Part shown: one piece after another, positions 1-49,500 of the stretch
Layout: every line of letters starts with the position of its first letter
How positions within the stretch are numbered: position 1 is the stretch's first letter
NCBI RefSeq assembly: GCF_036365525.1
Contig: NC_090371.1
Location: 195,197,255 to 195,261,254, forward strand
DNA length: 64,000 bases
Reading direction: 5' to 3'
From: Heterodontus francisci
Taxonomy: Eukaryota
Notes under the pieces: model-generated
Seen by the model: the letters and a program-made list of their open reading frames with translations, nothing else
Database searches by the model: none
What the model was told of the DNA's origin: nothing
Translations under genes and position numbers: made by a program

Positions 1-1773
1 ACTGTTGATGACACCTTCCATCACTTTACTGATGATTGAGAGTAGGCTGATAGGGTGGTAATTGGCCGGGTTGGACTTGTCCTGCTTTTTGAGTACAGGA
101 CATACCTGGGCAATTTTCCAAATTGTCGGGTAGATGCCAGTGTTGTAGCTGTACTGGAACAGCTTGGCTAGGGGCGCAACTAGTTCTGGAGCACAGGTCT
201 TCAGTACTATTGCTGGAATATTGTCAGGGCCAATAGCCTTTGCAGTATCCAGTGCCTTCAGTCGTTTTTTGATATCACACGGAGTGAATCGAATTGGCTG
301 AAGTCTGGCATCTGTGATGCTGGGGACTTCAGGAGGAGGCCGAGATGGATCATCAATTCGGCACTTCTGGCTGAAGATTGTTGCAAATGCTTCAGCCTTA
401 TCTTTCGCACTGATGTGCTGGGCTCCCCCATCATTGAGGATGGGGATATTTGTGGAGCCACCTCCTCCAGTTAGTTGTTTAATTGTCCACCACCATTCAC
501 GGCTGGATGTGGCAATACTGCAGAGTTTAGATCTGATCCATTGGTTATGGGATCGCTTAGCTCTGTCTATTGCATGCTGCTTACGCAGTTTGGCACGCAG
601 ATAGCCCTGTGTTGCAGCTTCACCAGGTTGGCACCTCATTTTGAGGTATGCCTGGTGCTGCTCCTGGCATGCCCTCATGCACTCTTCATTGAACCAGGGG
701 TGGTCTCCTGGCTTGATGGTAATGGTAGAGTGGGGGATATGCCGAGCCATGAGGTTACAGACTGTGGTTGAGTAGAATTCTGCTGCTGCTGATGGCCCAT
801 AGCGTCTCATGGATGCCCAGTTTTGCATTGCTAGATCTGTTCGGAATCTATCCCATTTAGCACGGTGGTAGTGCCACACAACACGATGGAGGGCATCCTC
901 AATGTGAAGGCGGGACTTCGTCTCCACAATGACTATGCAGTGGTCACTCCTGCCAGTACTGTCATGGACAGATTGGTGAGGACGAGGTAAAGTATGTTTC
1001 TCCCTCTTGTTGGTTCCCTCACCTCCTGCTGCAGACCCAGTCTAGCAGCTATGTCCTTTAGGACTCGGCCAGCTCGGTCAGTAGTGGTGCTACTGAGCCA
1101 CTCTTGGTGATGGACATTGAAGTCCCCCACCCAGAGTACATTCTGTGCCCTTGCTACCCTCAGTGCTTCCTCCAAGTGCTGTTCAACATGGAGGAGCACT
1201 GACTCATCAGCTGAGGGAGGGTGACAGGTGATAATCATTAGGAGGTTTCCTTGTCCATGTTTGACCTGATGCCATGAGACTTCATAGGGGCTGGAGTCGA
1301 TGTTGATGTCTCCCAGGGCAACTCCCTCCCGACTGTATACCACTGTGCCACCATCTCTGGTGGGTCTGTCCTGCCGGTGAGAGAGGACATACCCGGGGAT
1401 GGTGATGGCAGTGTCTGGGACATTGTCTGTCCAGTATGATTCCATGAGTATGATTATGTCAGGCTGTTGCTTGACTAGTCTGTGGGACAGCTCTCTCAAC
1501 TTTGGCAAAAGCCCCAAGATCTTAGTAAGGAGGACTTTGCAGGGTCAACAGGACTGGGTTTGCTGTTGTCGTTTCTGGTGCCTAGGTCAATGCCGGGTGG
1601 TCCGTCTGGTTTCATTCCTTTTTATTGACTTCGTAGCAATTAGATACAACTGAGTGGCTTGTTCGACCATTTGAGAGGGCATGTAAGAGTCAACCACATT
1701 GCTGTGGGTCTGGAGTCACATATAGGCCAGACCAGGTAAGGACAGCAGATTTCCTTCCCTAAAGGACATTAGT
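1..1773 (-). mobile_element. CR1/L2-group non-LTR retrotransposon (APE endonuclease plus start of RT), same family as 29041-32217; runs off the window start and lacks the tRNA head
   Basis: ORF 933-1517 has APE motifs (QQPDIIILMESY, RQDRPTRDGGTVVY, WVGDFNVHH). Colinear in reverse complement with 29230-30910, including the non-coding leader ACTAATGTCCTTTAGGGAAGGAAATCTGC. Stops and frameshifts present. Confidence 0.92.
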
Positions 1774-2917
1774 TCTGGTGCTGCCTCCTCTTCTATTGAC
1801 TCTGCTTTCTCTGGAGGCGGCTGAGGGGTTTGGCCAATTTCTGAACTGCCCTTCACATTTTGTTTGCATGCAGTGCCCTCTTTCCCATTATCTTGTGCAT
1901 CAGAGGTCTTGGTGCAGGGTGGGGTGCGAATCTGCTTGTCGGGTTTTCTACTCGATGCAATCCTGTTTCTGAGAGGGATAATATCGGCACTGGCTATCCA
2001 CCCGGTAGCAGCTCCTGCTTTAATGACCTGCACATAGGCGGCAGTGCGTTTTGGGCAGGCCTTGTAAAGATGGCCACCCTCCCCACACAAGTTGCAGCAC
2101 TTGCTCTCTTTGCAGTCCTTTGTCAAATGCCCTTCCTGCTTACAGTTCCGGCAAAAGATTGCACTGTAGTTGATGGCCAAGTGACCAGTTTTGTCGCAGG
2201 TGCGACACACTTTGGGCCGCCCCGCGTACACTAGATAACCTCGATTTCCTCCAATGCAAAGGTGGAAGGAAGGTGGAGGATGGCTCCAATGGCATCCATC
2301 TTAAGGTTACCCTGACCTGCCTTTTGCTTGTCCAGATCCCAAAAGTGTCCTTGACCTCCATGCTGTTTCCAGCCACCTCAACATACCTGCCCAGGAAGGT
2401 GAGCACATCCACCACAGGGATATGGGGTTTGTGCATGTGAATGGTCTCCACCCGGTTCCGTTGCACTGGCGAGTAAAGGATCAAAAGCGGCGCCTGGCTT
2501 CCTTTCTCCTTAAAAGAGTTCAGGAGTTTGACACATCCCATGACATTGTTAAATGTCACATCGAAGTATCCAGCACTGGGGAAATCCTGCAGGCAAAAGA
2601 TGTTCAAACCCACAGCACTCCAATTGGACCTGTTTTACAAAGAAGGTGCGGTCCACGGGTGCTCCTTTGACCGAGGTTGTCACTGTCACCCTGACAGTAT
2701 TGCACACCCCTTGGCCCGGAGCTCGGGCACTTGCAGCAGCCATAGCTCAAATGTTAAGTTGTTGCTGTATTGACGTTAGGTAAATCCCAGCAGAGCTCAA
2801 ACATCACCGTCACCGCCTCAGCCCCCAAACTGCCGTTGTTGACGAAGATCTTCACACTCGGAACTTACTGTCAGCCCTGGGAGTAGTATCAAGACTTTTC
2901 CCCTGCCAGGTAAGTAT
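1774..2917 (-). mobile_element. 5' part of a Tx1/L1-clade LINE: 5' UTR plus degenerate ORF1 (ZCCHC3-like, three CCHC zinc knuckles)
   Basis: Overlapping frameshifted ORFs 2549-2743, 2140-2613 and 1716-2231 give MAAASARAPGQGV...FDVTF...GIWTSKRQVRV...YAGRPKVCRTCDKTGH...CRNCKQEGHLTKDC...CNLCGEGGHLYKAC, the Tx1-type ORF1 layout. Confidence 0.85.
2874..2917 (-). ncRNA. U1 snRNA-derived 5' fragment (not a full U1 gene)
   Basis: Minus strand reads ATACTTACCTGGCAGGGGA (U1 nt 1-19), then AAAGTCTTGATACTAC and TCCCAGGGC, the latter also present in U1. No Sm site or 3' part of U1. Confidence 0.8.
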
Positions 2918-3929
2918 AGTGTAGCTAACTTAGCTTACTGATGATCTCGGTGTGCTGATGTACTTATTTGCTCATTCTAGTTCCCTTTGCCATGGGAAGT
3001 GAAATTCAGGTTAAAATGGATAAATATTTGGAGGCCACACTTCCAATGTAAAGGTCTCCTTTCAGAGTCACTGCATCAAAGTGTTTCACAAACAATGCAT
3101 TCAAATAGACAAGGTTCCAGCATACATCTCTGACATAGGAGAGTGGATTGCAGCTAATTAAAATTTCACTGAGAAATCTTCAACACGTTTGATGTGTACA
3201 TTTGCAATTAGTTTCAGCCTACATTACACATAAAAAGTCACTCAATTTGAACAATTAGCAAATTAAATCCCTACCACTAACAAACAAAGGTGCTTGCAAG
3301 TCTATCAAAAAAGCCCTTGCTGACATTTTCTTCATGTAACCTTACTGCTCTATTAACTCCACAGGCTTGAAGCGCCCGACTGCTGGATGCCAAAGCGCCA
3401 GCCTGTTTCAGGTGGTAGATCCTTTTCAAAATGCAAATAGGACCCTAGGACCCTAATTGCCATTTTAGTTGGAAATTGTCAGAGCTTGTGCCATCAATGC
3501 TCAAATCATTTCCAAGAGTGAAAGAACCAAAGAGACCCAGCGAAGGTAATATAATCTGGGTTGTTTATTGATAGGTCAATGGTCCATGCTACTGTGATAA
3601 ATAAGTTCCACATGAAAAACTGCTACTTAGGTTTGAAGCAGTGGTGATTTATGATAAATCCTGTAATGGACAAGAAATTGGCTGAAGAATAGGAAGCAGC
3701 TAGCACTTATGACCAGAACGTGGAGAATGGTAACATATAGCACATAGGAATTAAGACACGGACACTGCATGAATTCCATTAATCATGCTGAAGTGGCGAA
3801 GGATGAAGTTGCTGGAGACTTACAGCTGTAGATTTTCCTCTGCTGTACTACCTGAATTGAATTTGGTTATATTGTGGCAGAAAATCAAGAGAAATAGGCG
3901 GGGAGAAGTCTGCAGCCACATTTCTTCAT

Positions 3930-4490
3930 TCCTGTGTTACCTCTAGACTTGACTATTCCTGGCTGGCCTCCTACATTCTACCCTCTGTAAACTTGAGGTC
4001 ATCCAAAACTCTGCTACTCATGCTCTTACTAGCACCAAGTCCCATTCCCCTACCACCCATGCGCTCGCTGACCTACATTCGCTCCCTGTCAAGCAACTCT
4101 TCAATTTAAAAATTTTCATCCTTGTTTTCTAATCCCTCCATGGCCTTGCCCCTCCCTATCTCTGTAATTCCCTCCAGTCCAACAACCCTCCAATGTATCT
4201 GCACTCATTTAATTCTGGCCTCTTGAGCATCCCCGATTTTAATTGCTCCACATTGGTGGCTGGGCTTTCAGCTGCCTCGATCAGAAGCTGTGGAATTCCT
4301 TCTTTCAACCTCTCCATCTCTCTACCTCTTTCTTCTTAAAACCAAGCTTTGATCAAGCTTTTGGCCATCTGCTCTAATATTTCCATATGTGGCTTGGGGT
4401 CTAATTTTGCTTTATAACTCTCCTGTGAAGCATCTTGGGACCTTTTATTAGGTTAAATATGCTATATAAATATAAGTTGTTGTTGTTGTT
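3930..4490 (+). mobile_element. L2-clade LINE 3' fragment
   Basis: TCTAGACTTGACTATTCC...CCAAAACTCTGCT...CTGTGGAATTCCT...ATATAAGTTGTTGTTG tail; same family as 61700-62245. Confidence 0.75.
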
Positions 4491-4759
4491 CCCATGCTTA
4501 GCAATGCCACCATGTATTTTTCTTCCTTTCCCTGCAGGGAAGGTGACCTTCCGACCTTTGACCAACTGGTGCATGTAGGTAACGTCAGGGAGATGAGACC
4601 TGGAAAGCTGATGAATTTCCCTGCCTGCTGTTGCTACTGACCTGAGAGACTTCCATAATAGGAACAGTGGTAGGCCTGGGGCAGCAGTACAATGCCTGAT
4701 ATTGGTTGAAAGAATAGGGAGCAGGACACCACAACTCAGGAAGAATTTATTGCCCTTAG

Positions 4760-7129: not shown

Positions 7130-8202
7130 TTGAAGAGGAGGTGCAGCAGAGTGGAAGGGAGGTCCAGGCAGCGACAGCAGCCTGTGAGCCCTCAGGAGGG
7201 TCAGCAACAACATCCAGATGGTGGAGAAGGGTGTGGAGCGGAAATCCTGCAGCCTCCTGCACACAGAAGAAGTTACTATCTAGAGAGAGTCTACCGGTCA
7301 AGGCTCAACTAACTATAGATGTCCGAGAGGCAGTTCCAATGAAGAATCACTGACCTATGCGCTCTGATGCAGGAAGAGCTGTGCTCCAGGGGACTTGGCA
7401 GAAATCCAATGCCAGTGGCACTGAAGTTCAGTGTGGCACTGAACTTGTATGCCTCTGGATCATTGCAAGGATCCACCAAGGCCATGTGTCGGATCTCACA
7501 ATCAGCAGCCCATTGGTGCATCAAAGAGCTCACCAATGCCCTTTTCAGGAGGGCCGATGACCATGTGCACTTCTGCATGGATCCCAACAGTCAGGCTGAG
7601 AGGTCCATTGGGTTCGGGGCGATTGTTGGATTCCTCCAGATGCAGGTTGTTATTGACTGCACACATGTGGCCATCAAGGCTCCTGAACACCAGCTGGTGG
7701 CCTCCATCAACAGGAAGGGCTTCCACTCCCTCAAACTACAATTTGTCTGCGACCACTGTAAATGGATCCTGTAGGTCTGTGCACGCTTCGCTGGAAGTTG
7801 CCAGGATGCTTACATTTTAAAGCAGTCCCAGGTGGCAGAGCTTTGCCGGCCTCCTGCACACCTTCAGGAATGGATCCTTGGAGCCAAGCGCTACCCACTG
7901 ATGACATGGCTACTGACACCTGTGAGGAACCCACGCACAGATGCAGAGGAGAGGTACAACATCTGCCATGAGATAATGTGAGCGACTATCCAGCAGGTTA
8001 TTGGTCTACTCAAGCTGAGATTCATGTGCCTGGATCAGTCCAGTGGAACCCTTCAGTGCCCCAGCGAGGATCTCAAGTATCATGGTGGTTGGAGGCACTG
8101 AACAATGAGGATAGCGAGGAGCATGCTACCTCCTCGAATGATGAGGTTTCAGAGGAGCAAACTGGACAAGCATCGCCAGATGAAGGACCCCAGAGACAAT
8201 AG
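7130..8202 (+). pseudogene. Harbinger (HARBI1-like) DDE transposase, frameshifted
   Basis: ORF 7367-7774: ALNLYASGSLQG...ISQSAAHWCIKELTNALF...VIDCTHVAIKAP...NRKGFHSLKLQFVCD. Later frames give YPLMTWLLTPVRNP and LLKLRFMCLD. Confidence 0.88.
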
Positions 8203-12179: not shown

Positions 12180-14457
12180 CTGGTACAGGACTTAGGGGTG
12201 CAGATTTCACTGTAGGTTGGGGTTTCCCCTCAACCTGGCACATGTGGCAACTCCTGCAGTACTCCACCACATCTTTGTGGAGTTTTGGCCAGTCAAACTG
12301 CTGTCTTATGCGGGCTTTGGTCTTTCATATACTGGCATGTACAGCCACTGTAGTCTCGTGGGCCATTCTTAATATTTCTATCTGGTACCTCTGTGGCACC
12401 ACTAACTGGGGAACTACTGAGCATTCCTTGTTTTCAGGTCTGTGAGGAGAACTCCATTTCCTCATTCTTTAAATAGTAGCAATCAGGGATTCCCTCTGCT
12501 TCACTTTCAGACTGGGCAGCCAGTGCTAATTCTTGCAATACTGGGTCGGCTCGCTGAGCCTCAGCTAGAGAAAATCCATTTAATTCATTTCCTGAGCCTT
12601 CTAACTTCCCAAAGAAAGTCTCAGACAGACAGACCTCATGGTCATCTGCCTGCAGTGCCAATTCAGTCTCCTTTGGGGAAGCTGGTTTGATCATGGCCTG
12701 ATTCATTACACATTCAGGGAAGCTGCAGGGGTCCGTCACCTGCCACGAGCTGTCTCTTTGACCTCCTGCAGTCTTTCTTTCACTACTGGGGGGGCTACCA
12801 CCTTCACCCCTGCCAGATCATTACCTAGGAGCAGGTCAACCCTGTCCACAGGCAAACGAAGGACAATTCCTACAGTCACTGGTCCCAAAACTAGGTCGCA
12901 CTCCAGGTGCACCCGGTGTACAGCTACAGGCAAACACTGCCCTCCAATACCATTCACCACCAGTCTGGTGTTCACTGCATTCTCTGGGGGAAAGATCAGG
13001 CCTTTTCCCAGTAAAAGGGATCTAGTGGCCCCTGTGTCCCTGAGAATTACTATGGGCTTGCTTGCCCCACCGGAGGCAAAACCCTGATAACCGATTAAAT
13101 TTTCCTGCACTTGCAGCTGTAAGCTTCCTGGGTCTCACTCTTGCTGCAGTTAAAGCCACAGTTTGTTCTGCTGTGCTTTCCATCACGTTCACTTCTTCAC
13201 TAAGCAGGTGTGCCCTGATTAACCCTACAGGTTTTCCCTTTAGTTTCCAGCAGACAGCTTTTAAATGCCCTGCTTTATGACAATGGAAGCACACAGGTCT
13301 CCAGGTTTCACTTTTGCTCGCAGCACCTTCCTTTTTGGCTAGAGGAGGGCCCCCTGTGTCTCCTGCTTTCCTTTGTCTCCCAGGACTGCTTGGGCTCCTA
13401 TCACCTTCCCACCCTTTGTCCTTTTCGGATTTGTGGAGGTGACTAGGAAAGGTTTTCTCCTGGGAAACCGACTTATAAATTAAAGCAAACTCATCAGCCA
13501 GAACGGCCGCTTGCCAAGCTTTCTGAACCCACTGCTCCGCTACATGTGTCTTTATGGAGAGTGGGAGAGAGTGTTTAAATTCCTCTAACAGGATTACTTC
13601 TCTGAGATTCTCATAGTTGAGCTGTACTTTAAGAGCCCTCAGCCACTGGTCAAAAGCCAGCTGCTTAGTTCTTTCAAACTCCAGATAAGTTTGATTACCT
13701 TGCTTCTTGAGGGTTCTAAACTTTTGGCGATAGGCCTCGGGTGCTAATTCATATGCCCCGAGGATAGCATTTTTTGTCACTTCATAATTTGATGAACTCT
13801 AATCTGGCAACAGGGAATAAACCTCATGAGCTTTTCCTGTTAGCTTGTTTTGTAATAAAAGAGGCTTGGTCTCAGCTAGCCATTTTAGCTGCCTTGCCAG
13901 TTTCTCAAAGGACACAAAAAATGTTTCTAAATCTTCTTCATTGAATTTTGGGATTAGTTGAGCTAGTTTTAACAATTCTGTACCCAGCCCTGAATTACAG
14001 TCCTCCATATTGGCCATTCTTTCACTGAGGTTACTCTGTCGCCTCCTAATTAACTCAAGCCACTTCAGCTCTCTCTCTTCACATTCTTTCCAGAATATTC
14101 TTTCTATCTCCCTCTCCTGCCTTTCATTTTCTTCACGTTGCTTCTGGAAGGTCCTTTCTTTCTCCCTCTCCTATCTCTCTCTCTTTCGCTTTCCTTCCAA
14201 TTCAAGTTTCCTTTGTTCCAATTGTATCTTTGCTAACAATACCCTGTCAGAGTTTGCTTCTAACCCTGTTTCTGCTTCTTCAGAATCAAGGGAAAAATGG
14301 TTGGCCACTTAGGAGTTCAGACTTTCTAGCCTTGCCACGTACAGTGATCCCACACAGCTCAGCCATTTTCCTCAACTCCTCCATAGACAGTGCTTTTCAC
14401 TTATCTCAAGTTACTTCACCCTGGCTTGGAGGGCTACTAGCTTCAGTTGCAGACATG
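12180..14457 (-). pseudogene. Gypsy gag-protease-integrase(zinc-binding part) remnant
   Basis: ORFs 13799-14017 (PKFNEEDLETFFVSFEKLA), 13022-13780 (YELAPEAYRQKFR...LLEEFK...CFHCHKAGH), 12736-13110 (RDTGA...LLLGNDL) and 12434-12739 (AQRADP). Confidence 0.85.
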
Positions 14458-15514: not shown

Positions 15515-17365
15515 CTAAACTAATAAAAAATCAGCTAGGACACTTCTGGCCACATGGGATATGGCGCGTGAGACAGCTCCTGACTGACAAAGTGCTAGCT
15601 TGGGTGTACAATATGTGTTCCAGAAGCATGCAGAGTAGCCAGATTGCGATGTTAAATGTCCTTTAATGCTAATTTGGTGCATGATGTTCCATTTTGGACC
15701 ATGCAGGTCCAGTTATTGCCTCTCGTAAGCACTCCCATGTGTTCAGCTGCATGAGGAACACCTCGGGCAGAATCTTGTCAGCCACACGGAGATACCTTTG
15801 GAGGTGGGAGGGATGGGAATTTGCATAAGTTGCTTGTCGAGTTGTCTACCCAACGCGATCCTGTCCCTGAGTGGGATAATATCAGCACCGGCTATCCACC
15901 CGGTAGCAGCGGGAAGCAGGGATAGACACCTGGGCAATTAATCTGAATATAGAGTGCATAGATAATCTAATGCCATCAAAACACAGTCAGATTTAATGCA
16001 CATTTCTCCCTATAAATAAAGTAGCTAAGCATAAAAACATCAATGGAGAGCAGTACACTATATTAGCTAGCTAGCATGCAAAATAGTTTGCAATGGCAAT
16101 ACAAATTACTTTTGTTGACAGAATCGAGCTGGCTACATCAGGTCAGGGGGTGGTAGATGGACCTTATTGGATGACCTCTGTGGATTCACACTGTGTCAGG
16201 AGTGCAAATTCATTGAATAAAATTCAAGGAGAGGATGGTTATTGAGGGGACAGAGAGAGAGAGACGGGGAGGGGGGGGGAGTGGCAGTAAGAGAAAAGGA
16301 CTGAGAGAGATAGAAAAATCAGCAAATGGATACAATATCATTTCTCACACTGCTATTGTAACAAGACAGTTTAACCAGTGATGGTCAATGTTTGTGCTAC
16401 TTCTCCACCTGCTTGTGATATGTATCTGAAGACAGGGCAACCAACAAAAGGGCAGTGATCTCCAAATCAGGAGAATTTTATAGGATGGAGCAGATAGTAC
16501 TTCAGAAGAGTCATATAAAACAGAAAAACAGAATGGGACAGGAAGGGACAGAGAGATTAACGGTAGGTGGCCAAGACTAGTTCATTCATCTTGACAGGCT
16601 GTTAAATTAGGTCCTGGATTCTAAAATACAGAAATAACAGCATCTCTCATGGACAAAATATCCTTTACTCACCAAAGTTAGTGACAACATTCGATAGACG
16701 CAATTACAAATAAAGAGCACCCATCAGTTCCTCCGATAAAGCGATTCTCTTAAATTCACTTATGTCTATATCTCAGTCTATCACTGTCGATTAATATTCA
16801 GCTTTGAAAAAATAATTATTAACAGAAAGCTATTCAGCAAAAAGTTGAGCATTTGTCACTACACATATAGTTCTGTTACAAAATGTTTAGTCACTATCTG
16901 TAAGATTGTACTCCAGATTAATGAATTTATCTCCAAGCCAAATCTCTTACCTGTTCGCAAAAGTGCACTTTTAACGTAATGTAATTATATGATACAGACA
17001 ACTTTCAAATGACATTGGCCACTCAGGTTATCTGCCCTCAAACTGGATAGCCAATGATGCACATTGCAGTTACTGATCTTTGACATACTTGTAAAACTTG
17101 TCCTTTAATCCAATTTGCAGCAAACAAATCACTTACTGACTGTTTCTAACATGATCATTGAAACATAATAAATTTTTACTATGTCTTCCCTGACAATTTT
17201 TAAAACTGCAAATACAGCATGGAATTTGTTATGACATCGTCGACAGTTCATCATAGATTAAGGTTTATTAAAGCTATGCATTGCATTGTACCGACTATTG
17301 TGTATGGGTCTGCAGCATCCTGTTTTTGCCAATATCATTCAGCCTCATTACACTGTACTCTTGTC

Positions 17366-27164: not shown

Positions 27165-28600
27165 AGGATTATCTAAACTGAGCCTCTATGAGGATGGCCA
27201 GATGTGCAGCTGCAGCAGCCCTGCCCACATTATTCTCCCCATCCTCCAGCTCCTCTTCCTCCTCCTCCTCATCGGAAGATGATGATCAGTCTGCAGTTTC
27301 CTCCTTCTGCAGCTCCATTCCTCTCTGCAGCACCATATTGTGCAAGGTAAAGCAGCCCACCACCATTCTGGAGACCCTTGCTGCTGCATGCTGAAGGATA
27401 CCCCCAGATCTGCCCAGGGCACCTGAATCTCATTTTCAGCAAGCCAATGGCTTGCTCAATGATTGCCCTTGTGATGACGTGACTCTGTTGTATCTCTTCT
27501 CTGCATCCTTGACACAGCTCCTGACAGGTGTCATCAGCCAGGTTCTCCGACGGTAGCCCTTGTCTCCTAGGAGCCACCCATTCAGTCTGCTCAGAGATGT
27601 GGTAGACCTGACTGACACAGGATGCAGGAGTCATGGCAGCTTCCAGGAAATCTAGCGTGCACATGCATAATAAACTTGGGGTGTCACAAAGGATCTGCAC
27701 ATTGAGGGAGTAGAATCCTTTCCAGTTCATGAACACATCAGGATTATCTGATGGCACTTGGTTGCCACACGTATGCAGGCGAAGACTCTCTGTACCTGTG
27801 GGAATCCAACCACTACAGCAAAGGCAAGAGCTCTTTGCACCTGACTGGCCTCATCAGTGTCAAAGTGGACATATTGGGTGGCCTTGGCACACATGACACC
27901 TGTGAATTGGGAGACGGACTGTGGGCTGCAGATTGTGAGATCCTGCAGATGTCCTTAGCTGATGCCAGAAAGGCAAAGAGGTCTTCTTCCAAGAGGCTGC
28001 AAATGTCAGCAATGAGCTGGCGCGAGAGCCTGAGCCTCCTGAGGAGCTGTTGCTCATTCATATCGAGGAAGCTGATCCTCTGACTCTACACCCTTTTTGG
28101 GAGAGGTACAACCTCCTTCAAACTGCAATTCTGTGTCCTTCCCCTCTGCTCTGTGGAGCAACATGTGGTGGCGGAGAAGGCAGCTGCTGTTGTTGCTGCT
28201 CCTGCTGCTGGTGTTGGTGTTCCTCTTCCGAGGTCAATATAATGGCTGCATAAGCCTTTCCCATAGGCATAGCTGCAGCCATTCAGTTTCTTTATTTAAC
28301 CATCTTCGAGCATGTCAGTTTCACTGATCAATGTCCTCCCACTGAACTCTCGCCTTGCAGAATTTGGCAAGATCCACAAAGCTTGGAAAATCCAAGCGCT
28401 GGCTGTTAAGGTGGAATAGAAAGATAAATTGGTGTTTAATTGCTATTTAACACATTTAAATATCTGGCCCGACCCTTCAAGGGCGTTTCCCACTCGCTTC
28501 CGAATGCGCCCCTGTTAAATGCCGTCATTTTTCGGGGCTTTAACCCCGCCCCCGGATGCACAGAAGCCTGCCTTCCATTTAGCAGATAAAATTCCATCCA
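27165..28600 (-). mobile_element. PIF/Harbinger element with transposase pseudogene
   Basis: MNEQQLLRRLRLSRQLIADICSLL, NWKGFYSLNVQILCD, WLLGDKGY, IEQAIGLLKMRFRC; TIR-like TAAAATTCCATCC near 28587-28599. Confidence 0.85.
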
Positions 28601-29040: not shown

Positions 29041-32000
29041 AGGCGGTGGCGTAGTGGTATTATCACTGGACTAGTAACCCAAAGACCCAGCGTATTCCTC
29101 TGGGGACATGGGTTCGAATCCCACCACAGCAGAAGGTGAAATTTGAATTTAATTAATAAATCTGGAATTAAAACTAGTCCAATGATGGCCATGAAACCAT
29201 TGTCAATTGTTGTAAAAACCCATCTGGTTCACTAATGTCCTTTTGGGAAGGAAATCTGCTGTCCTTACCTGGTCTGGCCTACATGTGACTCCAGAACCCA
29301 GCATCGACCTTGGCACCGGAAACGACAATGGCAAACCCAGCCATGTCAACCCTGCAAAGTCCTCCTGACTAACATCTGGGGGCTTGTGCCAAAGTTGGGA
29401 GAGCTGTCCCACAGACTAGGCAAGCAACAGCCTGACATAGTCACACTCACGGAATCATACCTTACAGACAATGTCCCAGACACTGCCATCACCATCCCCG
29501 GGTATGTCCTGTCCCACCGGCAGGACAGACCCAGCAGAGGTGGTGGCACAGTGGTATACAGTAGGGAGGGAGTTGCCCTGGGAGTCCTCAATATCAACTC
29601 CAGACACCATGAAGTCTCATGGCATCAGGTCAAACATAGGCAAGGCAACCTCCTACTGATTACCACCTACTGCCCTCCCTCAGCTGATGACTCAGTACTC
29701 CTCCATGTTGAACACCACTTGGAGGAAGCACTGAGGGTGAAAAGGGCACAAAATGTATTCTGGGTGGGGGACTTCAATGTCCATCACCAAGAGTGGCTCG
29801 GTAGCACCACTACTGACTGAGCTGGCTGAGTCCTGAAGGACATGGTTGCTAGACTGGGTCTGCGGCAGGAGGTGGGGGAACCAACACGAAGGAAGAACAT
29901 ACTTGACCTCATCCTCACCAATCTGTCTGCCGCAGATGCATCTGTCCATGACAGTATTGGTAGGAGTGACCACTGCACAGTCCTTGTGGAGACGAAGTCC
30001 CGCCTTCACATTGAGGATACCGTCCATCATGTTGTGTGGCACTACCACCGTGCTGAATGGGATAGATTTCAAACAGATCTAGCAATGCAAAACTGGGCAG
30101 CCATGAGGCGCTGTGGGCCATCAGCAGCAGCAGAATTGTACTCAGCCACAAACTGTAACCTCATGGCCCGGCATATCCCCCACTCTACCATTACCATCAA
30201 GCCAGGAGACCAACCCTGGTTCAATGAAGAGTGCAGGACGGCATGCCAGGAGCAGCACCAGGCACACCTCAAAATGAGGTGTCAACCTGGTGAAGCTACA
30301 ACACAGGACTATCTGCATGCCGAACTGCGTAAGCAGCATGCGATAGACAGAGCTAAGTGATCCCATAACCAACGGATCAGATCTAAGCTCTGCAGTCCTG
30401 CCACATCCAGCCGAGAATGGTGGTGGACAATTAAACAACTAACTGGAGGAGGTGGCTCCACAAATATCCCCATCCTCAATGATGGGGAGCCCAGCACATC
30501 AGTACGAAAGATAAGGCAGAAGCATTTGCAACAATCTTCAGCCAGAAGTGCCGAGTTGATGATCCATCTCGGCCTCCTCCTGAAGTTCCCAGCATCACAG
30601 ATGCCAGACTTCAGCCAATTCGATTCACTCCAAGTGATATCAAGAAACGACTGAAGGCACTGGATACTGCAAAAGCTATGGGCCCTGACAATATTCCAGC
30701 AATAGTACTGAAGACCTGTGCTCCAGAACTAGTCGCGCCCCTAGCCAAGCTGTTCCAGTACAACGACAACACTGGCATCTACTCTGCAATGTGGAAAATT
30801 GCCTCGGTATGTCCTGTACACAAAAAGCAGGACAAATCCAACCCGGCCAACTACCGCCCCATTAGCCTACTCTCAATCATCAGTAAAGTGATGGAAGGTG
30901 TCATCAACAGTGCCATCAAGCGGCACTTGCTTCGCAACAACCTGCTCAGTGACACTCAGTTTTGGTTCCGCCAGGGCCACTCAGCTCCTGACCTCATTAC
31001 AGCCTTGGTTCAAACATGGACAAAAGAGCTGAACTCAAGAGGTGAGGTGAGAGTGACTGCTCTTGACATCAAGGCAGCATTTGACCGAGTATGTCATCAA
31101 GGAGTCCTAGCAAAACTGGAGTCAATGGGAATCGGGGGAAAACCCTCCGCTGGCTGGAGTCATACCTAGCACAAAGGAAGATGGTTGTGGTTGTTGGAGG
31201 TCAATCATCTGAGCTCCAGGACATCACTGCAGGAGTACCTCAGGGTAGTGTCCGAGGCCCAACCATCTTCATCTGCTTCATCAATGACCTTCCTTCAATC
31301 ATAAGGTCAGAAGTGGGGATGTTCGCTGATGATTGCACAATGTTCAGCACCATTCGTGACTCCTCAGATACTGAAGCAGTCCGTGTAGAAATGCAGCAAG
31401 ACCTGGACAATATCCAGGCTTGGGCTGATGAGACAAGTAACATTCACGCCACACAAGTGCCAGGCAATGACCATCTCCGACAAGAGAGAATCTAACCATC
31501 TCCCCTTGACATTCAACGGCATTACCATCACTGAATTCCCCACTATCAACATCCTAGGGGCTACCATTGACCAGAAACTGAACTGGAGTAGCTATATAAA
31601 TACCGTGGCTACAAGAGCAGGTCAGAGGCTAGGAAACCTAAGGCGATTAACTCACCTCCTGACTCCCCAAAGCCTGTCCACCGTCTGCAAGGCACAAGTC
31701 AGGAGTGTGATGGCATACTCTCCACTTGCCTGGATGGGTGCAGCTCCAACAACATTCAAGAAGCTCGACACATCCAGGACAAAGCAGCCCGCTTGATTGG
31801 CACCCCATCTACAAACATTCACTCCCTCCACCACCGACGCATCGTGGCAGCAGTGTGTACCACCTACAAGATGCACTGCAGCAACGCACCAAGGCTCCTT
31901 AGACAGCACCTTCCAAACCCGCGACCTCTACCAACTAGAAGGACAAGGGCAGCACGTACATGGGAACACCACCACCTGCAAGTTCCCCTCCAAGTCACAC

Positions 32001-41313: not shown

Positions 41314-44300
41314 TAGAGTCATCGAGTCATAGAGTCATACAGCAAAGAAACAGGCCCTTCGGCCCACCGTGTCCATGCCGACCATAATGCCCATCTATAC
41401 TAATCCCACTTGCCTGCATTAATTCCATATCCCTCTATGCCTTGCTCATTCAAGTACCTGTCCAGATGCCTCTTAAATGTCACTACTGTTCCTGCCTCCA
41501 CCACCTCCTCAGGCAGCTCATTCCAGATACCCACTATCCTTTGTGTGAAAAATCTACCCCTTTGAACCCCTTTAAACCTCCTCCCTTTCACCTTAAATCT
41601 ATGCCCTCTAGTTTTAGTCACCCCTACCATGGGAAACAGACTCTGGCTATCTACCCTATCTATGCCTCTCATAATTTTATATACCTCTATCATGTCCCCT
41701 CTCAGCCTCCTTCGCTCCAGCTAAAACAGCCTAACCAATCTCTCTTTATAACTCAAGCCCTCCAAACCAGGCAACATCCTTGTTAATCTTTTCTGCACCC
41801 TCTCTAGCTTAATCACATCTTTCCTGTAGAGCGGCCACCAGAACTGCACATAGTACTCCAAATGCGGCCTCGCAAACATTATGTAGAACTGTAACATGGC
41901 GTCCCAACTCTTGTACTCAATGCCTCGGCCGATGAAGGCAAGCATGCCATATGCCTTCATCCCCACCCTGTCTACCTGTGTTGCCACTTTCAGGGAACTA
42001 TGTACTTGCACCCCAAGGTCTCTCTGCTCAACAACACTCCCCAGGGCCTTGTCATTCACTGTATATGTCCTGCCCTGGTTTAACTTCCCAAAATGCTTCA
42101 CTTCACACTTGTCTGCGTTAAATTCCATTTGCCAATCCCTTGCCCACTTTCCCAGTTGATCTATATCCTGTTGTAACCTTAGACAACCTTCTTCACTGTC
42201 CACTATACCACCAATTCTGGTGTCATCTGCAAACTTACCAATCATGCCCCCTACATTCACATCCAAGTCATTAATATATATGACAAACAACAGAGGGCCC
42301 AGCACCAATCCCTGCGGCACACCACTGGTTACCGGCCTCCAATATGAAAAACAACCCTCCACTACCACCCTCTGCCTCCTATCACCAAGCCAATTTTGTA
42401 TCCAATTTGCTAGCTCACCCTGGATCCCATGTGTTCGAACCTTCTGGTCCAGCCTACCATGCGGGACCTTGTCACAGGCCTTGCTAAAGTCCATGTAGAC
42501 AACGTCCATCGCCCTGCCCTCGTCAATCCTCTTGGTCACCTCCTCGAAAAACTCAATCAAGTTCGTGAGACATGATTTCCCACGCACAAAGCCATGCTGA
42601 CTATCCCTAATCAGACCAGGCCTTTCCAAATGCATATAAATCCTGTCTCTCAGAATCCCTTCCAATAACTTTCCCACCACTGATGTAAGGCTCACCGGCC
42701 TGTAGTTCCCTGGCTTATCCCTGCTGCTCTTCTTAAATAAAGGCACAACATTAGCTATCCTAAAGTCTTCTGGTACCTCACCCGTGGCTAACGATGATAC
42801 AAAAGTCTCTGCCAGGGCCCCAGCAATCTCCTCCCTTGCTTCCCACAGCATCCTAGGATACACCTGGTCAGGCCCTGGGGATTTATCCACCTTAATGCGC
42901 TTCAAAACCTCCAATGCCTCCTCCTTTGTATTATTGATATGCTCCAGGATATCGCTGTTCCAGCCCTTGAACTCATTAGCTTCCATGACCTTCTCCACAG
43001 TAAATACAGACAAGAACTATACATTTAAGACCTCGCCCATTTCCCATGGCTCCACACATAGATTGCCACACTGATCCTTAAGGGGACCTACTCTCTCCCT
43101 AGCTACCCTTTTACTCTTAATACACTTATAGAATCTTTTAGGATTCTCCTTTATCTTATCTGCCAGGGAAATCTCATGCCCCCTTTTCACCCTCCTAATT
43201 TTCCTTCTTAAGTGTACTCCTACATCCTCTATACTCCTCAAGAGACTCACTTGATCCCAGCTGCCTATACCTGACATATGCCTCCTTCTTTGTCCTGACC
43301 AGACCCCCAATATCCCTCGGTAACCCTAAACCTGCCAGCCTTGCCCTTCCATCTAACAGGAACATGCTGGCCCTGAACTCTTCCTATCTCACTCTTAAAA
43401 GCCTCCCACTTGCCAGACATCCCTTTACCTGTAAACAGCCTCTCCCATTCAACTTTTGAGAGTTCCTGTCTGATGCCATCGAAATTAGCCTTCCCTCAAT
43501 TTAGGACTTCAACCTGAGGATCAGTCCTATCCTTTTCCATAACTATCTTGAAGTTAATAGAATTATGGTCACTGGTCCCAAAGTGCTCCCCCACTGACAC
43601 ATCAACCACCTGCCCAGCCTCATTTCCTATGAGGAGGTCGAATGTAGCCCCTTCTCTAGTAGGGTCATCCACATACTGCTTCAGAAAACTATCCTGGACA
43701 CACTTAACAAATTCTTCCCCATCTGATCCCTTAGCACTAAGGCAGTCCCAGTCAATATTAGGGAAGTTAAAATCACCTACTATTACAACCCTATAATTCC
43801 TACACCTATCTGTGATTTCCCTACATATGTGCTCCTCACTTCCCTCTGACTATTGAGGGGCCTATAGTATAATCCCATCAAAGTGATCACCCCTTTCTTA
43901 TTTCTAAGTTCTACCCATATGGCCTCGCTGGACATTCCCCCCAGGATATCCTCTCTTAGTACTGCCGTGATGTCCTCCCTAATCAATAGTGCAACTCCCC
44001 CTCCTCTCTTACCTTCACCTCTGTCACGCCGGAAGGATCGGTACCCCGGAACATTGAGCTGCCAGTCCTGCCCATCCCTCAACCACGTTTCCGTAATAGC
44101 TATAATATCACAATCCCATGTACCAATCCATGCTCTGAGTTTATCTGCCTTACCTGTAAGGCTTCTTGCATTAAAGTAAATGCAGTTTAGCCTATCAGAC
44201 CTTCCATGCTCCCTGCCCTGCCCCGCCCCTGCTCGGCCTGTCTACTGGACTTGCTTGCTTTAACCTCTACATTTGCCTCAACTATCTCATCGGAGAGACT

Positions 44301-45672
44301 ACTACTTTGGGTCCCACCCCCCTGCAAGACTAGTTTAAACCCTCCAGAGTAGTACTAGCAAACCTTCCCGCAAGGATATTGGTCCCCTTCCAGTTTAGAT
44401 GCAACCCATCCTTCTTGTACAGGCCACTTCTGCACAGAAGAGATCCCAATGATCCAAGTAGCTGAAGTCCTCCCGCCTACACCAGCTCTTCAGCCACGCA
44501 TTCATTTGCCTTACCCTCCTATTCCTACCCTCACTAGCACGTGGCACAGGAAGTAATCCTGAGATTACAACCCTAGAGGTCCTGCTTTTTAACCTTCTGC
44601 CTCTATTCACTTTGCAGGACCTCATCTCTCTTCCTGCCTATGTCGTTAGTACCAATATGGACCACGACCTTTGGCTGCTCCCCCTCCCCTTTCAGAATGT
44701 CCTGCAGCCGCTCCGAGATATCCTTGACCCTAGCACCAGGGAGGTAACATACCACCCTGGAGTCTTGTTTGTGGCCACAGAAACGCCTATCTGCACCTCT
44801 TCTGATAGAATCCCCTCTCACAAGAGCTCTTCCAACCCTTTTCCTCCCCTGCTGTGCAGCAGAGCCCTCCGTGGTGCCACAAACTTGGCTGTTGCTGCTT
44901 TCCCCTGGGAGGTCATTCCCCCCCAACAGTATCCAAAGCAGTATATCTGTTTGAGAGGGGGATGGCCACAGGGGACTCCTGTACTACCTGCCTACACCTA
45001 CTACTCCATCTGGTGGTAACCCATCTCTTTTCTGCCTGTGCAGCCATTACCTGCGATGTGATCACCTCACTAAACGTGCTATCCACAACGTCCTCAGCAT
45101 CGCGGATGCTCCACAGTGAATCCACCCACAGCTCCAGCTCCGTAATGCGGGTAGCCAGTAGCTGAAGATGGATACACTTCCTGCACACATGGTCGTCAGG
45201 GACACTGGAAGCGTCCCTGATATCCCTCATAGCGCAGGAGGAGCATATCACAGGCTGAGCTCTCCTGCCATGAATTACCCTTAGTTTAATTAGTTACTCC
45301 CTTAATTTAAAAATACTAATTACGCTGTGGGCCTTGTTCTACCCACTCCAATCTAAAGTCCTTAAAAAAAACACTTTAGTCATACTCACCTTATCACCAG
45401 AGGTTTTATTTTCAACAGAAAAAAACTTTCCCCTTTTTTTTAAAGATATTCTAACAGCTGCTACTCACCAACCAATCAGCTTGTAGCTCCCCTCTGACGT
45501 CACTGTTGGCTTTTTTTTTCAAAACTCCGGCGCGCTGGAAGAGCTCCTCTCTGCTCCGTTCCCGGAAGGTATGAGACTGGGTCTCGATCCTCGGGGTCAA
45601 TTTATAGGCTCAGCACTCAGCGTTTTCCCCACAGGTCCGCTCCGTTCCTCTCTGCTCTGCTCCCGGAAGGTA
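41314..45672 (-). mobile_element. Near full-length CR1 LINE (5' UTR, ORF1 with zinc finger and SGNH esterase, ORF2 APE-RT, (TATGACTC)n tail)
   Basis: ORF1 pieces CSSC...HVCRKC, RGDS, VVVHIGTND, DHWDLF. ORF2 pieces GGGVALLI, PGNYRPVSLTS, VYMDFSKA, GVPQG, KFADD. Stops, frameshifts and one internal deletion. Confidence 0.95.
41721..43013 (-). pseudogene. CR1 ORF2 reverse transcriptase domain (430-aa open segment of a disrupted ORF)
   Basis: All RT motifs are in one frame, but the flanking ORF2 is broken. Confidence 0.9.
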
Positions 45673-46544: not shown

Positions 46545-49500
46545 GGCAATAATAAAACTTGAATTGGAAGAATGGGAGATATGGGGAGCATTTTGGAGAG
46601 AAAGTGAAAGAGAAGAGAGGGAATTTAAGTCAAAAGAGATGGAACTAAGGCAAAAGGGTAGTCTTGAATCCAGGGAAAATTCAGGTCAGGAAGAATCTGA
46701 ATTCAGCTCAGGACCCAGCAAAAAGTTGTTTAAATTTATACAGGCTCTTCCTAAGATCGAGGAAAGGGACGTAGAGGCATTTTCACATCTTTCGAAATAG
46801 CCAAACAGATGAAATGGCTGAAGGAAAGTTGGACACTGCTTCTGCAAAGCAGGTTGGTAGGCAGAGCTCATGAAGTTTATGCCATGCTTCCTGAAGAGGC
46901 TTCTACAGATTATGAGATAACAAAAAAGGCTATTCTTGTTGCGTATGAGTTAGTCCCTGAAGCTTACCGTAAGAAGTTTCAGAAATTACGGAAATTGGCT
47001 CGGCAGACATATATAGAATTTGAGAGGGTGAAGCAAATTAATTTTGACTATTGGATATGGACATTAGAGATATAAACACATATAAGAACCTTTGGGAGTT
47101 GATTCTCTTAGAAGAGTTTGAAAACTCCAGTCCTTCACTAGTGAGAACTCATGTAGATAACCTGAAAGTTTTGAAAGCCAGGCAAGCAGTGGAAATTGCT
47201 GATGATTTTGAGCTTGTGAATAAGCCAAAACCTTTCGTCCATCACCCCCTAACCTTGAGAAGGATAGAAAGTGGAAGAGTGAAAGGAAGGCAAGTAGCCG
47301 GGGACAAGAAGGAGCAGATGGGAATGTCCCGGGATCACCTCCTCAGGTCAGAAATTAACATGCTCAGGGTAGAAGTGAGGTTCGCAAGCTAAAGTGTTGT
47401 CATTGACACAAAACGGGTCATCTTCATTCAGAGTGCTGGAAATTGCCAGGTAAACCCATAGGACTTGTTAGTTCTGCAAAGCTAGTGCAGAGGAAAAGAC
47501 TCTGACTGAGAGTATAGCATACCAGGCTACAGCTTTAACGACAGTTGTAAAACCAGATACTAAAACTAAAAGGTGTGTAGAGGTTAAGAATAAAATATTC
47601 AAAAGTTATAATGAATTTTCATCAAAGGGGAATGTAACTCCATATCCCATAAGTGAGGCAGGAAAACCTATCATTATAGTCAGGGATACAACCCAAGGAG
47701 CAACCCAAACACGCTTGCTGGGGAAAGATGCAATGTTTCCACCAGAGAGTGCCTTGAATGCTAAAGTTTTAGTTAAGGGAATTGGTGAGGAGTTTATGTC
47801 CATACTTTTATATAAAGTACGCCTAGAGAGTGACTTAATATCTGGGATAGTAACTGTAGGAGTTGTCCACAGTTTGCTGGTAGAGGGAATTGATCTACTC
47901 CTAGGAAATAATTTGGCTGGATCAAAAGTATCAGTTTCTCCTATAATTACAGAGGAACCAAGTGAAATTAAGGAAATGGCGCAATTACAGGAACAAGTTC
48001 CAGGAATATTTTCTGCGTGTGTAGTCACCCGAGCAATGGCGAAACAGGATCTATTGTCGGAGGTAAAAGGGACACCACCAACAGATAGCCAAGTACCTGA
48101 AAACTTATTTGGGATTTAGATAATCCAAATGAGATGTTTGACAGATCTTCTATCATTGCAGCACAGCAAGCTGATCCAGAGATATACCGAATGGCACAGA
48201 CGGCTCTGACAGAAGCTGAGGCGAAAGGAGTTCCGGAAGGCTATTATATGGCAAATGGGGTTTGAGGAGGAAATTGCCACTGCCTCATAGACCTGCCAAC
48301 GAAGACTGGACAATTGTTGAACAGATAGTGGTACCGCCTAAATATCACCAGGGATTATTAAGGTTAGCATACAACATTCCTTTTGCAGGACATAGGGAAT
48401 TCGGAAGACCAAATCACGCATAAGCCAACATTATTACTGGCCAGGTCTTACAAAGGATGTGAGACAATTTTGTAGGACATGCCATGCACGTCAAATGGTG
48501 GGGAAAACCACAACCTACCATAAAGCCTGCACCGCTAGTTCCCATACCAGTTATTGAGGAACTATTTAAAAGGGTATTGGTAGACTGTGTAGGACCTTTG
48601 CCAAAAACAAAAGTGGGACATCAATACATACTTGCTATCATGGATATGGCTACTCAATTTCCAGAGGCCATTCCTTTGAGGACAATTACTACTAGAATAG
48701 TAGTAGAAATGTTAACCCAATTCTTTACGAGATATGGGTTACCATTTGAAGTTCAATCAGATCAAGGTTCTAATTTCATGTCTAGGATATTTCAAGAAGT
48801 CATGAGCCATTTGGGGATTAGACAGTTGAAATCTTCAGCATATCACCCACAGTCATAGGGAGCTTTAGAAGGATTTCACCAAACTGTCAAAAAAATGGTT
48901 GGAACATACTGTCACGAATATCCACGTGACTGGGCTAAAGGAATAGACTTTTTTTTATATGCCACATGAGACGCACTGAATGAGTCTACAGGCTTCAGTC
49001 CTTTCGAATTTATGGACATGAAGTAAGAGATCCTCTAAAACTTAAAAAAGACATATTCTTGGAACAAAATAATGAATCTTTGATACTAGACTATGGGCTG
49101 GATTTTACCTTAGGTGGATGGGAATTCGCAACCGACTTTTACATGGTGGCGAACCTGCTTCCACCTAGCCCAGGGATCCGTACCGCATTTTACGGTCCCC
49201 AGGATTTAATTGTCCCAAGGCGGTACTTTCACCCACTTGAGTGAGGAGGTCTCGCCTCAGTGAGCTGCCGGCCAATCAGCTCTGGGTCTCAGCAGCGCCA
49301 CCGGAAGCAGTGCTGGGACTGCAGCCCAACCGACACCATGGAACGTAGAGATGAGGTAAGTTAGGCTTGCCTCACCAGGGGGATTGGTCCTTCCCTGGTG
49401 GAGTGGTTGTTTGGGGGGAGGGGGGCATCTTAGGTCCCGGCGGTGGGTTGGGAGGCGGGGGCGGCCCTCAATCGGGTATCCTGTGTCCGACTGCCATGGC

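What the first reader, a model, noticed from the sequence alone, without database searches (positions are those of the whole stretch)
2744..2917. Tx1-type LINE whose 5' end is the 5' end of U1 snRNA
Seen: about 170 nt upstream of the ORF1 ATG (2743), the minus strand starts ATACTTACCTGGCAGGGGA. This is identical to U1 nt 1-19 and begins exactly at U1 +1. A shortened segment follows, then TCCCAGGGC, also in U1. The rest of U1, including the Sm site, is absent and no PSE is evident upstream. Established: Tx1-clade elements include snRNA-gene-targeting families (Keno in U2), and crocodilian SINEU elements have U1/U2 heads. Inference: this is a shark LINE family that either inserts into U1 genes and is transcribed from the U1 promoter, or has fixed a diverged U1 head. 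Its RNA would carry the 5'-splice-site-binding sequence ACUUACCUG at the cap end. Antisense copies would also donate a perfect CAG|GTAAGT splice donor (2908-2916).
Basis: partly seen in the sequence, partly recalled or inferred. Interest (0 to 1): 0.8.

Follow-up and report, generated by a model that had tools for sequence, protein, structure and literature searches.

The report
Shark LINE with U1-derived head
A dead shark retrotransposon copy begins with a remodelled piece of the U1 splicing RNA, a layout already described in crocodilian retrotransposons and here seen in a shark-type element, though not yet shown to be shared by its whole family.

Summary
The minus strand from 2917 equals U1 nt 1-19 (19/19) and nt 45-53 (9/9), with a rewritten, 9-nt shorter stem-loop I between them, 174 nt ahead of a decayed Tx1-type ORF1 (ATG 2743). 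A younger LINE cuts ORF1 at about 1774; ORF2 and the 3' end are not in the window. No PSE, DSE or U1 3' half was found, so this copy is not in a U1 gene. Chance or a host splice donor cannot explain it (about 7e-10). [quoted passage not shown] New: the ORF1 falls in an all-shark/ray clade (100/100) with a basking-shark protein whose N-terminus reads as U2 then U1 sequence. Best reading: a U1 5' fragment captured by template switching and carried as the element's 5' UTR (0.55). One-off chimera 0.25; U1-gene-targeting family 0.17. Whether other copies share the head could not be tested. New member of a known kind.

The parts
2899..2917 (-). U1 nt 1-19, exact; starts at U1 +1; holds the 5'-splice-site-binding arm
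   Evidence: by eye
2883..2898 (-). Remodelled stem-loop I: 16 nt in place of U1 20-44 (25 nt); U1's AUG at 26-28 reads TTG; can still close a short hairpin on the U1 base stem
   Evidence: (by eye)
2874..2882 (-). U1 nt 45-53, exact; end of the clear U1 similarity
   Evidence: by eye
2863..2868 (-). GTAAGT in the element's own 5' UTR (head positions 50-55), complementary to U1 nt 3-8; possible cis mask or cryptic donor; 136 of 5000 shuffles contain it
   Evidence: post hoc
2744..2873 (-). Rest of the 5' UTR (130 nt); one upstream ATG at 2804-2802; not more structured than shuffles
1774..2743 (-). Decayed Tx1-type ORF1: two ZCCHC3-type RNA-binding domains and zinc knuckles, frame breaks near 2605 and 2270-2285, C-terminus cut off
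1..1773 (-). Second, younger LINE (AP endonuclease + RT-like ORF) nested in or abutting ORF1; 91% identical to the copy at 29231-30911; not part of the U1-headed element
2907..2915 (+). Antisense of the U1 arm, reads as a perfect splice donor CAG|GTAAGT; the only one in the window

Best explanation
[quoted passage not shown] Its 5' end is the first 53 nt of U1 snRNA. Shown: the U1 match, its start at +1, the ORF1 type, the shark/ray clade, the lack of a U1 promoter at this locus. Inferred mechanism: at some point the element's reverse transcriptase, on reaching the 5' end of its RNA, jumped to a U1 RNA and copied it to its cap end, which is why the head starts exactly at +1; the head then travelled with the master element as its 5' UTR, where stem-loop I was shortened and rewritten and U1's AUG was lost, while nt 1-19 and 45-53 were kept or refreshed from U1 RNA, as documented for crocodilian SINEU-2. 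The head is not an snRNP (no Sm site) and holds no known promoter, so the master was probably transcribed from flanking sequence. This copy inserted in non-genic or intronic DNA, decayed and was cut by another LINE.
For: U1 1-19 and 45-53 exact. Differences from U1 are not spread as decay would spread them: 0 of 28 in the flanks against 5 of 11 plus a 9-nt loss in the middle (Fisher p 8e-4, post hoc; P of 5 or more of 11 is 7e-5 to 0.016 for 4.5-15% decay). Shark U1-derived sequence is canonical over 14-28 in the basking-shark model (RGDTM), so the middle is not just a shark-human difference. Crocodilian Tx1-2_Crp, Tx1-2B_Crp, Tx1-4_AMi have a U1 head like SINEU-2's; SINEU-2's head varies at nt 20-45, joins U2 sequence at 53-58, and one form also lacks AUG at 26-28: the same span and the same variable part. 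ORF1 lies in a 10-row clade of shark and ray proteins, 100/100 (11 rows in the 123-row quick tree), which includes Cetorhinus maximus XP_078387188.1, whose residues 30-40 match U2 nt 2-34 in frame at 10 of 11 and 42-46 match U1 nt 14-28 at 5 of 5. No PSE-like match upstream; nearest exact octamer is over 500 nt away.
Against: No second copy with this head was found: the window has one; the antisense head peptide found nothing among 347 candidates; none of 183 stored ORF1 relatives carries a peptide of this head and only 1 of 183 has any U1 peptide, though most start at their own Met and cannot show a UTR. The basking-shark head differs (U2 first, U1 AUG kept, about 11 codons to ORF1), which fits an independent one-off join or a spliced gene model equally well. 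The retained hairpin is not more stable than shuffles (z 0.42). The U1 reference is human/mouse, compared by eye; a diverged shark U1 variant as donor is not excluded. Tx1 membership was not tested on the RT.
Confidence: 0.55

Rival explanations
1. One-off chimera: during this insertion the RT switched from the element RNA to a U1 or variant-U1 RNA, as in snRNA/L1 chimeras; other copies have an ordinary 5' UTR. The odd middle comes from a variant donor or from junction deletion and filler.
For: Such chimeras are established, and 26 SINEU-2 copies carry independently added U1 5' extensions. The +1 start is expected. No sister copy with this head was found. The basking-shark U2+U1 N-terminus differs in layout.
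Against: Concentrated divergence in nt 20-44 with intact flanks is unlikely from decay of canonical U1; the span and variable part match a crocodilian family-level head; one-off chimeras are a minority of copies, and the only near-full 5' end in the window has one.
Confidence: 0.25
2. U1-gene-targeting family, a U1 counterpart of Keno: masters insert about 53 nt into U1 genes, are transcribed from the U1 promoter as a U1(1-53)-element fusion, and this copy is an off-target insertion of that co-transcript.
For: Keno inserts about 37 nt into U2 genes and a distant ORF1 relative (P0087) reads through U2 nt 2-34 at 11 of 11. A U1-promoter transcript would begin at +1, and it would solve the missing-promoter problem raised in PMC4494074. 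The end point near 53 recurs in SINEU-2.
Against: No PSE/DSE at this locus. A head renewed from working U1 genes at each insertion should be canonical, and this one has a rewritten stem-loop I. As of 2015 no U1-targeting non-LTR element was listed, only Dada-U1 DNA transposons.
Confidence: 0.17
3. A host plus-strand splice donor, or chance, that happens to sit near the element's end.
For: CAG|GTAAGTAT is a perfect donor; a shorter look-alike occurs at 1732-1745 in the neighbouring LINE.
Against: Given a perfect donor, the further 8 nt and the 9-mer have a joint chance of about 7e-10; Rfam aligns model positions 1-55; no host-gene domain in 236 of 246 long ORFs scanned.
Confidence: 0.02

Closest known systems
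Crocodilian Tx1-Mar families Tx1-2_Crp, Tx1-2B_Crp, Tx1-4_AMi (U1 head) and Tx1-11_Crp (U2 head); PMC4494074
   Same: Tx1-type LINE whose 5' end is U1-derived; the head is said to be quite similar to SINEU-2's, which spans U1 1 to about 53 with a variable 20-45.
   Different: Shark/ray ORF1 clade; stem-loop I is 9 nt shorter here; no Mariner target shown; the crocodilian sequences (Fig. 1B, supplements) could not be seen, so common descent versus parallel capture is open.
SINEU-1 and SINEU-2; PMC4494074
   Same: U1-derived head without a recognisable promoter; repeated U1/U2 additions (the basking-shark relative reads U2 then U1, the order of SINEU-1C/H).
   Different: SINEU are short, non-coding and reported only from crocodilians; this element encodes ORF1.
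Keno (Tx1 clade, U2-gene-specific); PMC4640811, PMC6136364 passages
   Same: Same broad ORF1 family; an snRNA 5' fragment directly upstream.
   Different: U1 not U2; no snRNA promoter upstream here; the fragment is diverged, not an intact target gene.
snRNA/L1 template-switch chimeras (described in PMC4494074 discussion)
   Same: snRNA 5' sequence from +1 joined to a LINE, no promoter.
   Different: Those are single events, often on truncated LINEs; here the 5' UTR and ORF1 start are complete and the U1 part is internally rewritten.
ZCCHC3-like shark proteins (Heterodontus XP_067897345.1 and others)
   Same: ORF1 pieces 57-64% identical; same two RNA-binding domains and knuckles.
   Different: These database entries are annotated as genes and carry no DNA context here.

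Membership tests
Tx1 clade non-LTR retrotransposon | RT domain groups with Tx1 references | not testable with these tools
   ORF2 is not in the window; no Repbase references on hand.
Tx1 clade non-LTR retrotransposon | ORF1 with RNA-binding domains and CCHC knuckles (that this marks Tx1 is recalled) | tested here: met
   PF23057, PF23058, PF00098.
Tx1 clade non-LTR retrotransposon | ORF2 with AP endonuclease and RT after ORF1 | tested here: inconclusive
   Absent from the window; present in relative P0084 (APE, RVT_1, zf-RVT), and a whale-shark model joins this ORF1 to homologous ORF2 pieces.
Tx1-Mar / U1-headed Tx1 | U1-derived 5' head | tested here: met
Tx1-Mar / U1-headed Tx1 | Head shared across the family consensus | not testable with these tools
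   One copy in the window; no eukaryotic DNA collection; indirect searches negative.
Tx1-Mar / U1-headed Tx1 | Insertion preference for Mariner-N4-like transposons | not testable with these tools
   The 5' flank 2918-3937 has no repeat elsewhere in the window; no repeat library to name it.
SINEU | Short (<500 bp) non-coding retroposon | tested here: not met
   Head is followed by about 970 nt of ORF1.
snRNA-gene-targeting element (Keno-like) in its target | snRNA promoter upstream (PSE near -60, DSE near -220; positions) | tested here: not met
   No match to a recalled PSE consensus at 3 mismatches upstream; nearest exact octamer 3431-3438. A shark PSE may differ from the consensus.
snRNA-gene-targeting element (Keno-like) in its target | Rest of the snRNA gene after the element's 3' end | not testable with these tools
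   3' end is left of base 1.
U1 snRNA gene | Full length with stem-loops II-IV and Sm site | tested here: not met
   Rfam matches model 1-55 of 166 only, 16.3 bits against a gathering score of 69.5; no U1.
One-off snRNA/LINE chimera | One target-site duplication around both parts; junction unique to the copy | not testable with these tools
   3' end and sister copies unavailable.

The most novel reading that the evidence does not exclude
U1 nt 1-53 is an old working module of a jawed-vertebrate Tx1 lineage, shared by sharks and crocodilians or captured twice with the same boundary, either because the masters insert at about nt 53 of U1 genes (the first U1-targeting LINE, borrowing the U1 promoter) or because the intact arm acts in cis: it pairs with the GTAAGT 50 nt downstream and hides both its own splice-site-binding activity and a cryptic donor in the element's 5' UTR.
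Probability: 0.15. Interest if true: 0.75.

Novelty: new member of a known kind. Interest (0 to 1): 0.42.

Why it matters
PMC4494074 leaves open how U1/U2-headed elements are transcribed and why the heads are added again and again, and reports SINEU from crocodilians only. A shark/ray lineage with the same U1 span gives an independent group of genomes in which to ask whether the head is inherited, re-captured or a target remnant. If it is a family trait, every antisense copy also plants a perfect splice donor. If it is a one-off, it is an ordinary snRNA/LINE chimera.

Tried and rejected
Rfam on the whole window and on 2700-3100 gave no U1; only the truncated 54-nt scan did. Search of 5.8 billion proteins with the 46-aa antisense stretch over the head, longer proteins only: 0 of 347 candidates at E 10 or less; weak evidence, and 25-81 aa proteins were not searched. 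Screen of 183 stored ORF1 relatives: 34 of 182 aligned had an N-terminal extension of 15 aa or more; a U2 peptide in 3 (two are near-duplicates), a U1 peptide in 1, this head's own peptides in 0. Folding: whole UTR z 0.48, first 50 nt z 0.42, not structured beyond chance; pairing of U1 3-8 with UTR 50-55 ranges from 0.99 (first 60 nt) to 0.02 (400 nt). A possible stem-loop II remnant (8 of 11 to U1 71-81 at head positions 55-65, by eye) is too weak to claim. Atlas searches gave no Tx1 name; PDB sequence search gave only retroviral zinc knuckles. No PSE consensus in the passages of PMC5054213, so a recalled one was used. No statement tying ZCCHC3 to Tx1 in PMC10351740 passages. Ten low-complexity ORFs at 18.4-19.9 kb were left out of the Pfam scan.

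Full report
Observation. The minus strand from 2917 reads as described. The 19-mer occurs once in the window, with 0.03 matches expected at up to 3 mismatches. Against human and mouse U1 printed in bioRxiv 2021.08.01.454689 (passage; compared by eye) head positions 1-19 equal U1 1-19, positions 20-30 match at 6 of 11, and positions 36-44 equal U1 45-53, so stem-loop I is 9 nt shorter. Frog U1 primers in PMC2064619 (passage) show that this part of U1 is conserved beyond mammals. Rfam aligns U1 model positions 1-55 from 2917 (E 0.0074, 16.3 bits, gathering 69.5) when given 2872-2925; that stretch was hand-picked, and the wider scans did not report U1. Taking a perfect donor as given, the further 8 nt and the 9-mer have a joint chance near 7e-10. 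The donor on the plus strand is at 2907-2915.

The element. An ORF1 starts at 2743, 174 nt after U1 +1. It is in three frames, with breaks near 2605 and 2270-2285, and carries two ZCCHC3-type RNA-binding domains and zinc knuckles. Its best relatives are shark and ray proteins, 57-64% identical to Heterodontus XP_067897345.1 over the three pieces, and their first residue aligns with this ATG. Similarity stops near 1775, where another LINE begins that is 91% identical to 29231-30911. No ORF2 of this type is in the window. A fish relative has ORF1 followed by AP endonuclease, RT and zinc finger, and a whale-shark model joins this ORF1 to homologous ORF2 pieces. That this ORF1 type marks the Tx1 clade is recalled; the RT test could not be run. 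In a 27-row careful tree the window's ORF1 lies in a clade of 10 rows, 100/100, whose other nine are named shark and ray proteins; the 123-row quick tree gave the same clade with 11 rows.

Context. No match to a recalled PSE consensus lies upstream at up to 3 mismatches, although the pattern is loose (41 matches in the window, 41.7 expected). The nearest exact octamer is at 3431-3438, over 500 nt away; PMC4494074 puts PSE near -60 and DSE near -220. Pfam found only transposon domains in 236 of the 246 stop-free stretches of 75 aa or more. So this copy is not in a U1 gene, and no host gene is evident.

Fixed head or accident. The differences from U1 are bunched: 0 of 28 in the flanks, 5 of 11 plus the deletion in the middle (Fisher p 8e-4, post hoc). 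Decay of 4.5-15% gives 5 or more of 11 with P 7e-5 to 0.016; the 4.5% floor is inferred from the nested LINE. U1's AUG at 26-28 reads TTG, which would suit a 5' UTR (inference). The short hairpin left is not more stable than shuffles. [quoted passage not shown] In SINEU-2 the segment replaced between subfamilies is nt 20-45, the U1/U2 junction is at 53-58, and one form has GTG where U1 has AUG. That the crocodilian head is U1 1 to about 53 is my inference from this numbering. The span and the variable part are those seen here. The same paper shows repeated, independent U1 additions to SINEU-2 copies and leaves transcription open.

Evidence from relatives. No eukaryotic DNA collection was available, so I looked for snRNA sequence read through into predicted proteins. 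Of 183 stored relatives, 34 of 182 aligned had an extension of 15 aa or more. Cetorhinus maximus XP_078387188.1, in the window's clade, has residues 30-40 equal to U2 nt 2-34 in frame at 10 of 11 and residues 42-46 equal to U1 nt 14-28 at 5 of 5, directly before ORF1. A distant unnamed protein, P0087, has the U2 stretch at 11 of 11, as expected for Keno, which inserts about 37 nt into U2 (PMC6136364 passage). Against the reading: no stored protein has a peptide of the window's own head, the antisense search found none among 347 candidates, the GTDB scan found nothing, and the basking-shark head differs in layout, so it shows that this clade takes up snRNA ends but not that it has one fixed head. 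It rests on a gene model, not on DNA.

Mechanism. Most likely (0.55) a U1 5' fragment was captured by template switching and then carried and remodelled as the 5' UTR of the master element, with no snRNP role and no promoter of its own. A one-off chimera (0.25) and a U1-gene-targeting family seen off target (0.17) remain. [quoted passage not shown] One lead: GTAAGT at head positions 50-55 is complementary to U1 nt 3-8; it occurs in 136 of 5000 shuffles, and the pairing is predicted at 0.99 for the first 60 nt but 0.02 for 400 nt. It is post hoc and unproven.

Novelty. U1-headed Tx1 LINEs are known. Searches for a shark or other non-crocodilian case (listings, with passages of PMC8869645 and PMC5753468 read) found none, but the library lacks most subscription papers and Repbase could not be searched. 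Verdict: real feature, new member of a known kind, family status untested, interest 0.42.

Noticed in passing
P0017 (Cetorhinus maximus XP_078387188.1), residues 30-56: N-terminus reads as U2 nt 2-34 then U1 nt 14-28 before a Tx1-type ORF1; the Met from U1's own AUG is in frame with ORF1 and could serve as its start; the residues after it are compatible with an internal deletion in stem-loop I.
   Followed up: partly
P0087 and P0165 (ENA, unnamed), residues 54-64: Exact in-frame U2 5' sequence upstream of a distant ORF1 relative; likely a Keno-type insertion.
   Followed up: partly
window 1933-2012 and 15831-15910: An 80-nt stretch inside ORF1, after the knuckles, is 86% identical to an isolated copy; AAGCAG lies on both sides on the minus strand, 83 nt apart, yet the frame stays open. 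Small insertion or native ORF1 sequence; unresolved.
   Followed up: partly
window 2923-2935: Perfect interrupted palindrome AGCTAA-C-TTAGCT, 6-18 nt upstream of U1 +1.
   Followed up: no
window 1732-1745 and the sister copy near 29265-29275: The nested LINE has a short donor/U1-arm look-alike near its 5' boundary, without further U1 similarity.
   Followed up: partly
window 4538-4578 (+): 41 nt between a strong pyrimidine tract plus AG and a GT; possible small exon on the same strand as the antisense donor at 2907-2915.
   Followed up: no
window 41721-45293 (-): Near-complete LINE with an esterase-type ORF1 (Lipase_GDSL_2), AP endonuclease and a 421-aa RT ORF.
   Followed up: no
window 13025-13798 (-) and 47048-48855 (+): SCAN-domain remnants, the second with an integrase core; probably SCAN-bearing Gypsy elements (name recalled).
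   Followed up: no
window 7343-7771 (+) and 27272-27850 (-): DDE_Tnp_4 (Harbinger-like) transposase remnants.
   Followed up: no
P0014 (MBB6707171.1): A protein labelled Proteus mirabilis clusters at 90% with bamboo-shark ORF1; probably shark DNA in a bacterial assembly.
   Followed up: no
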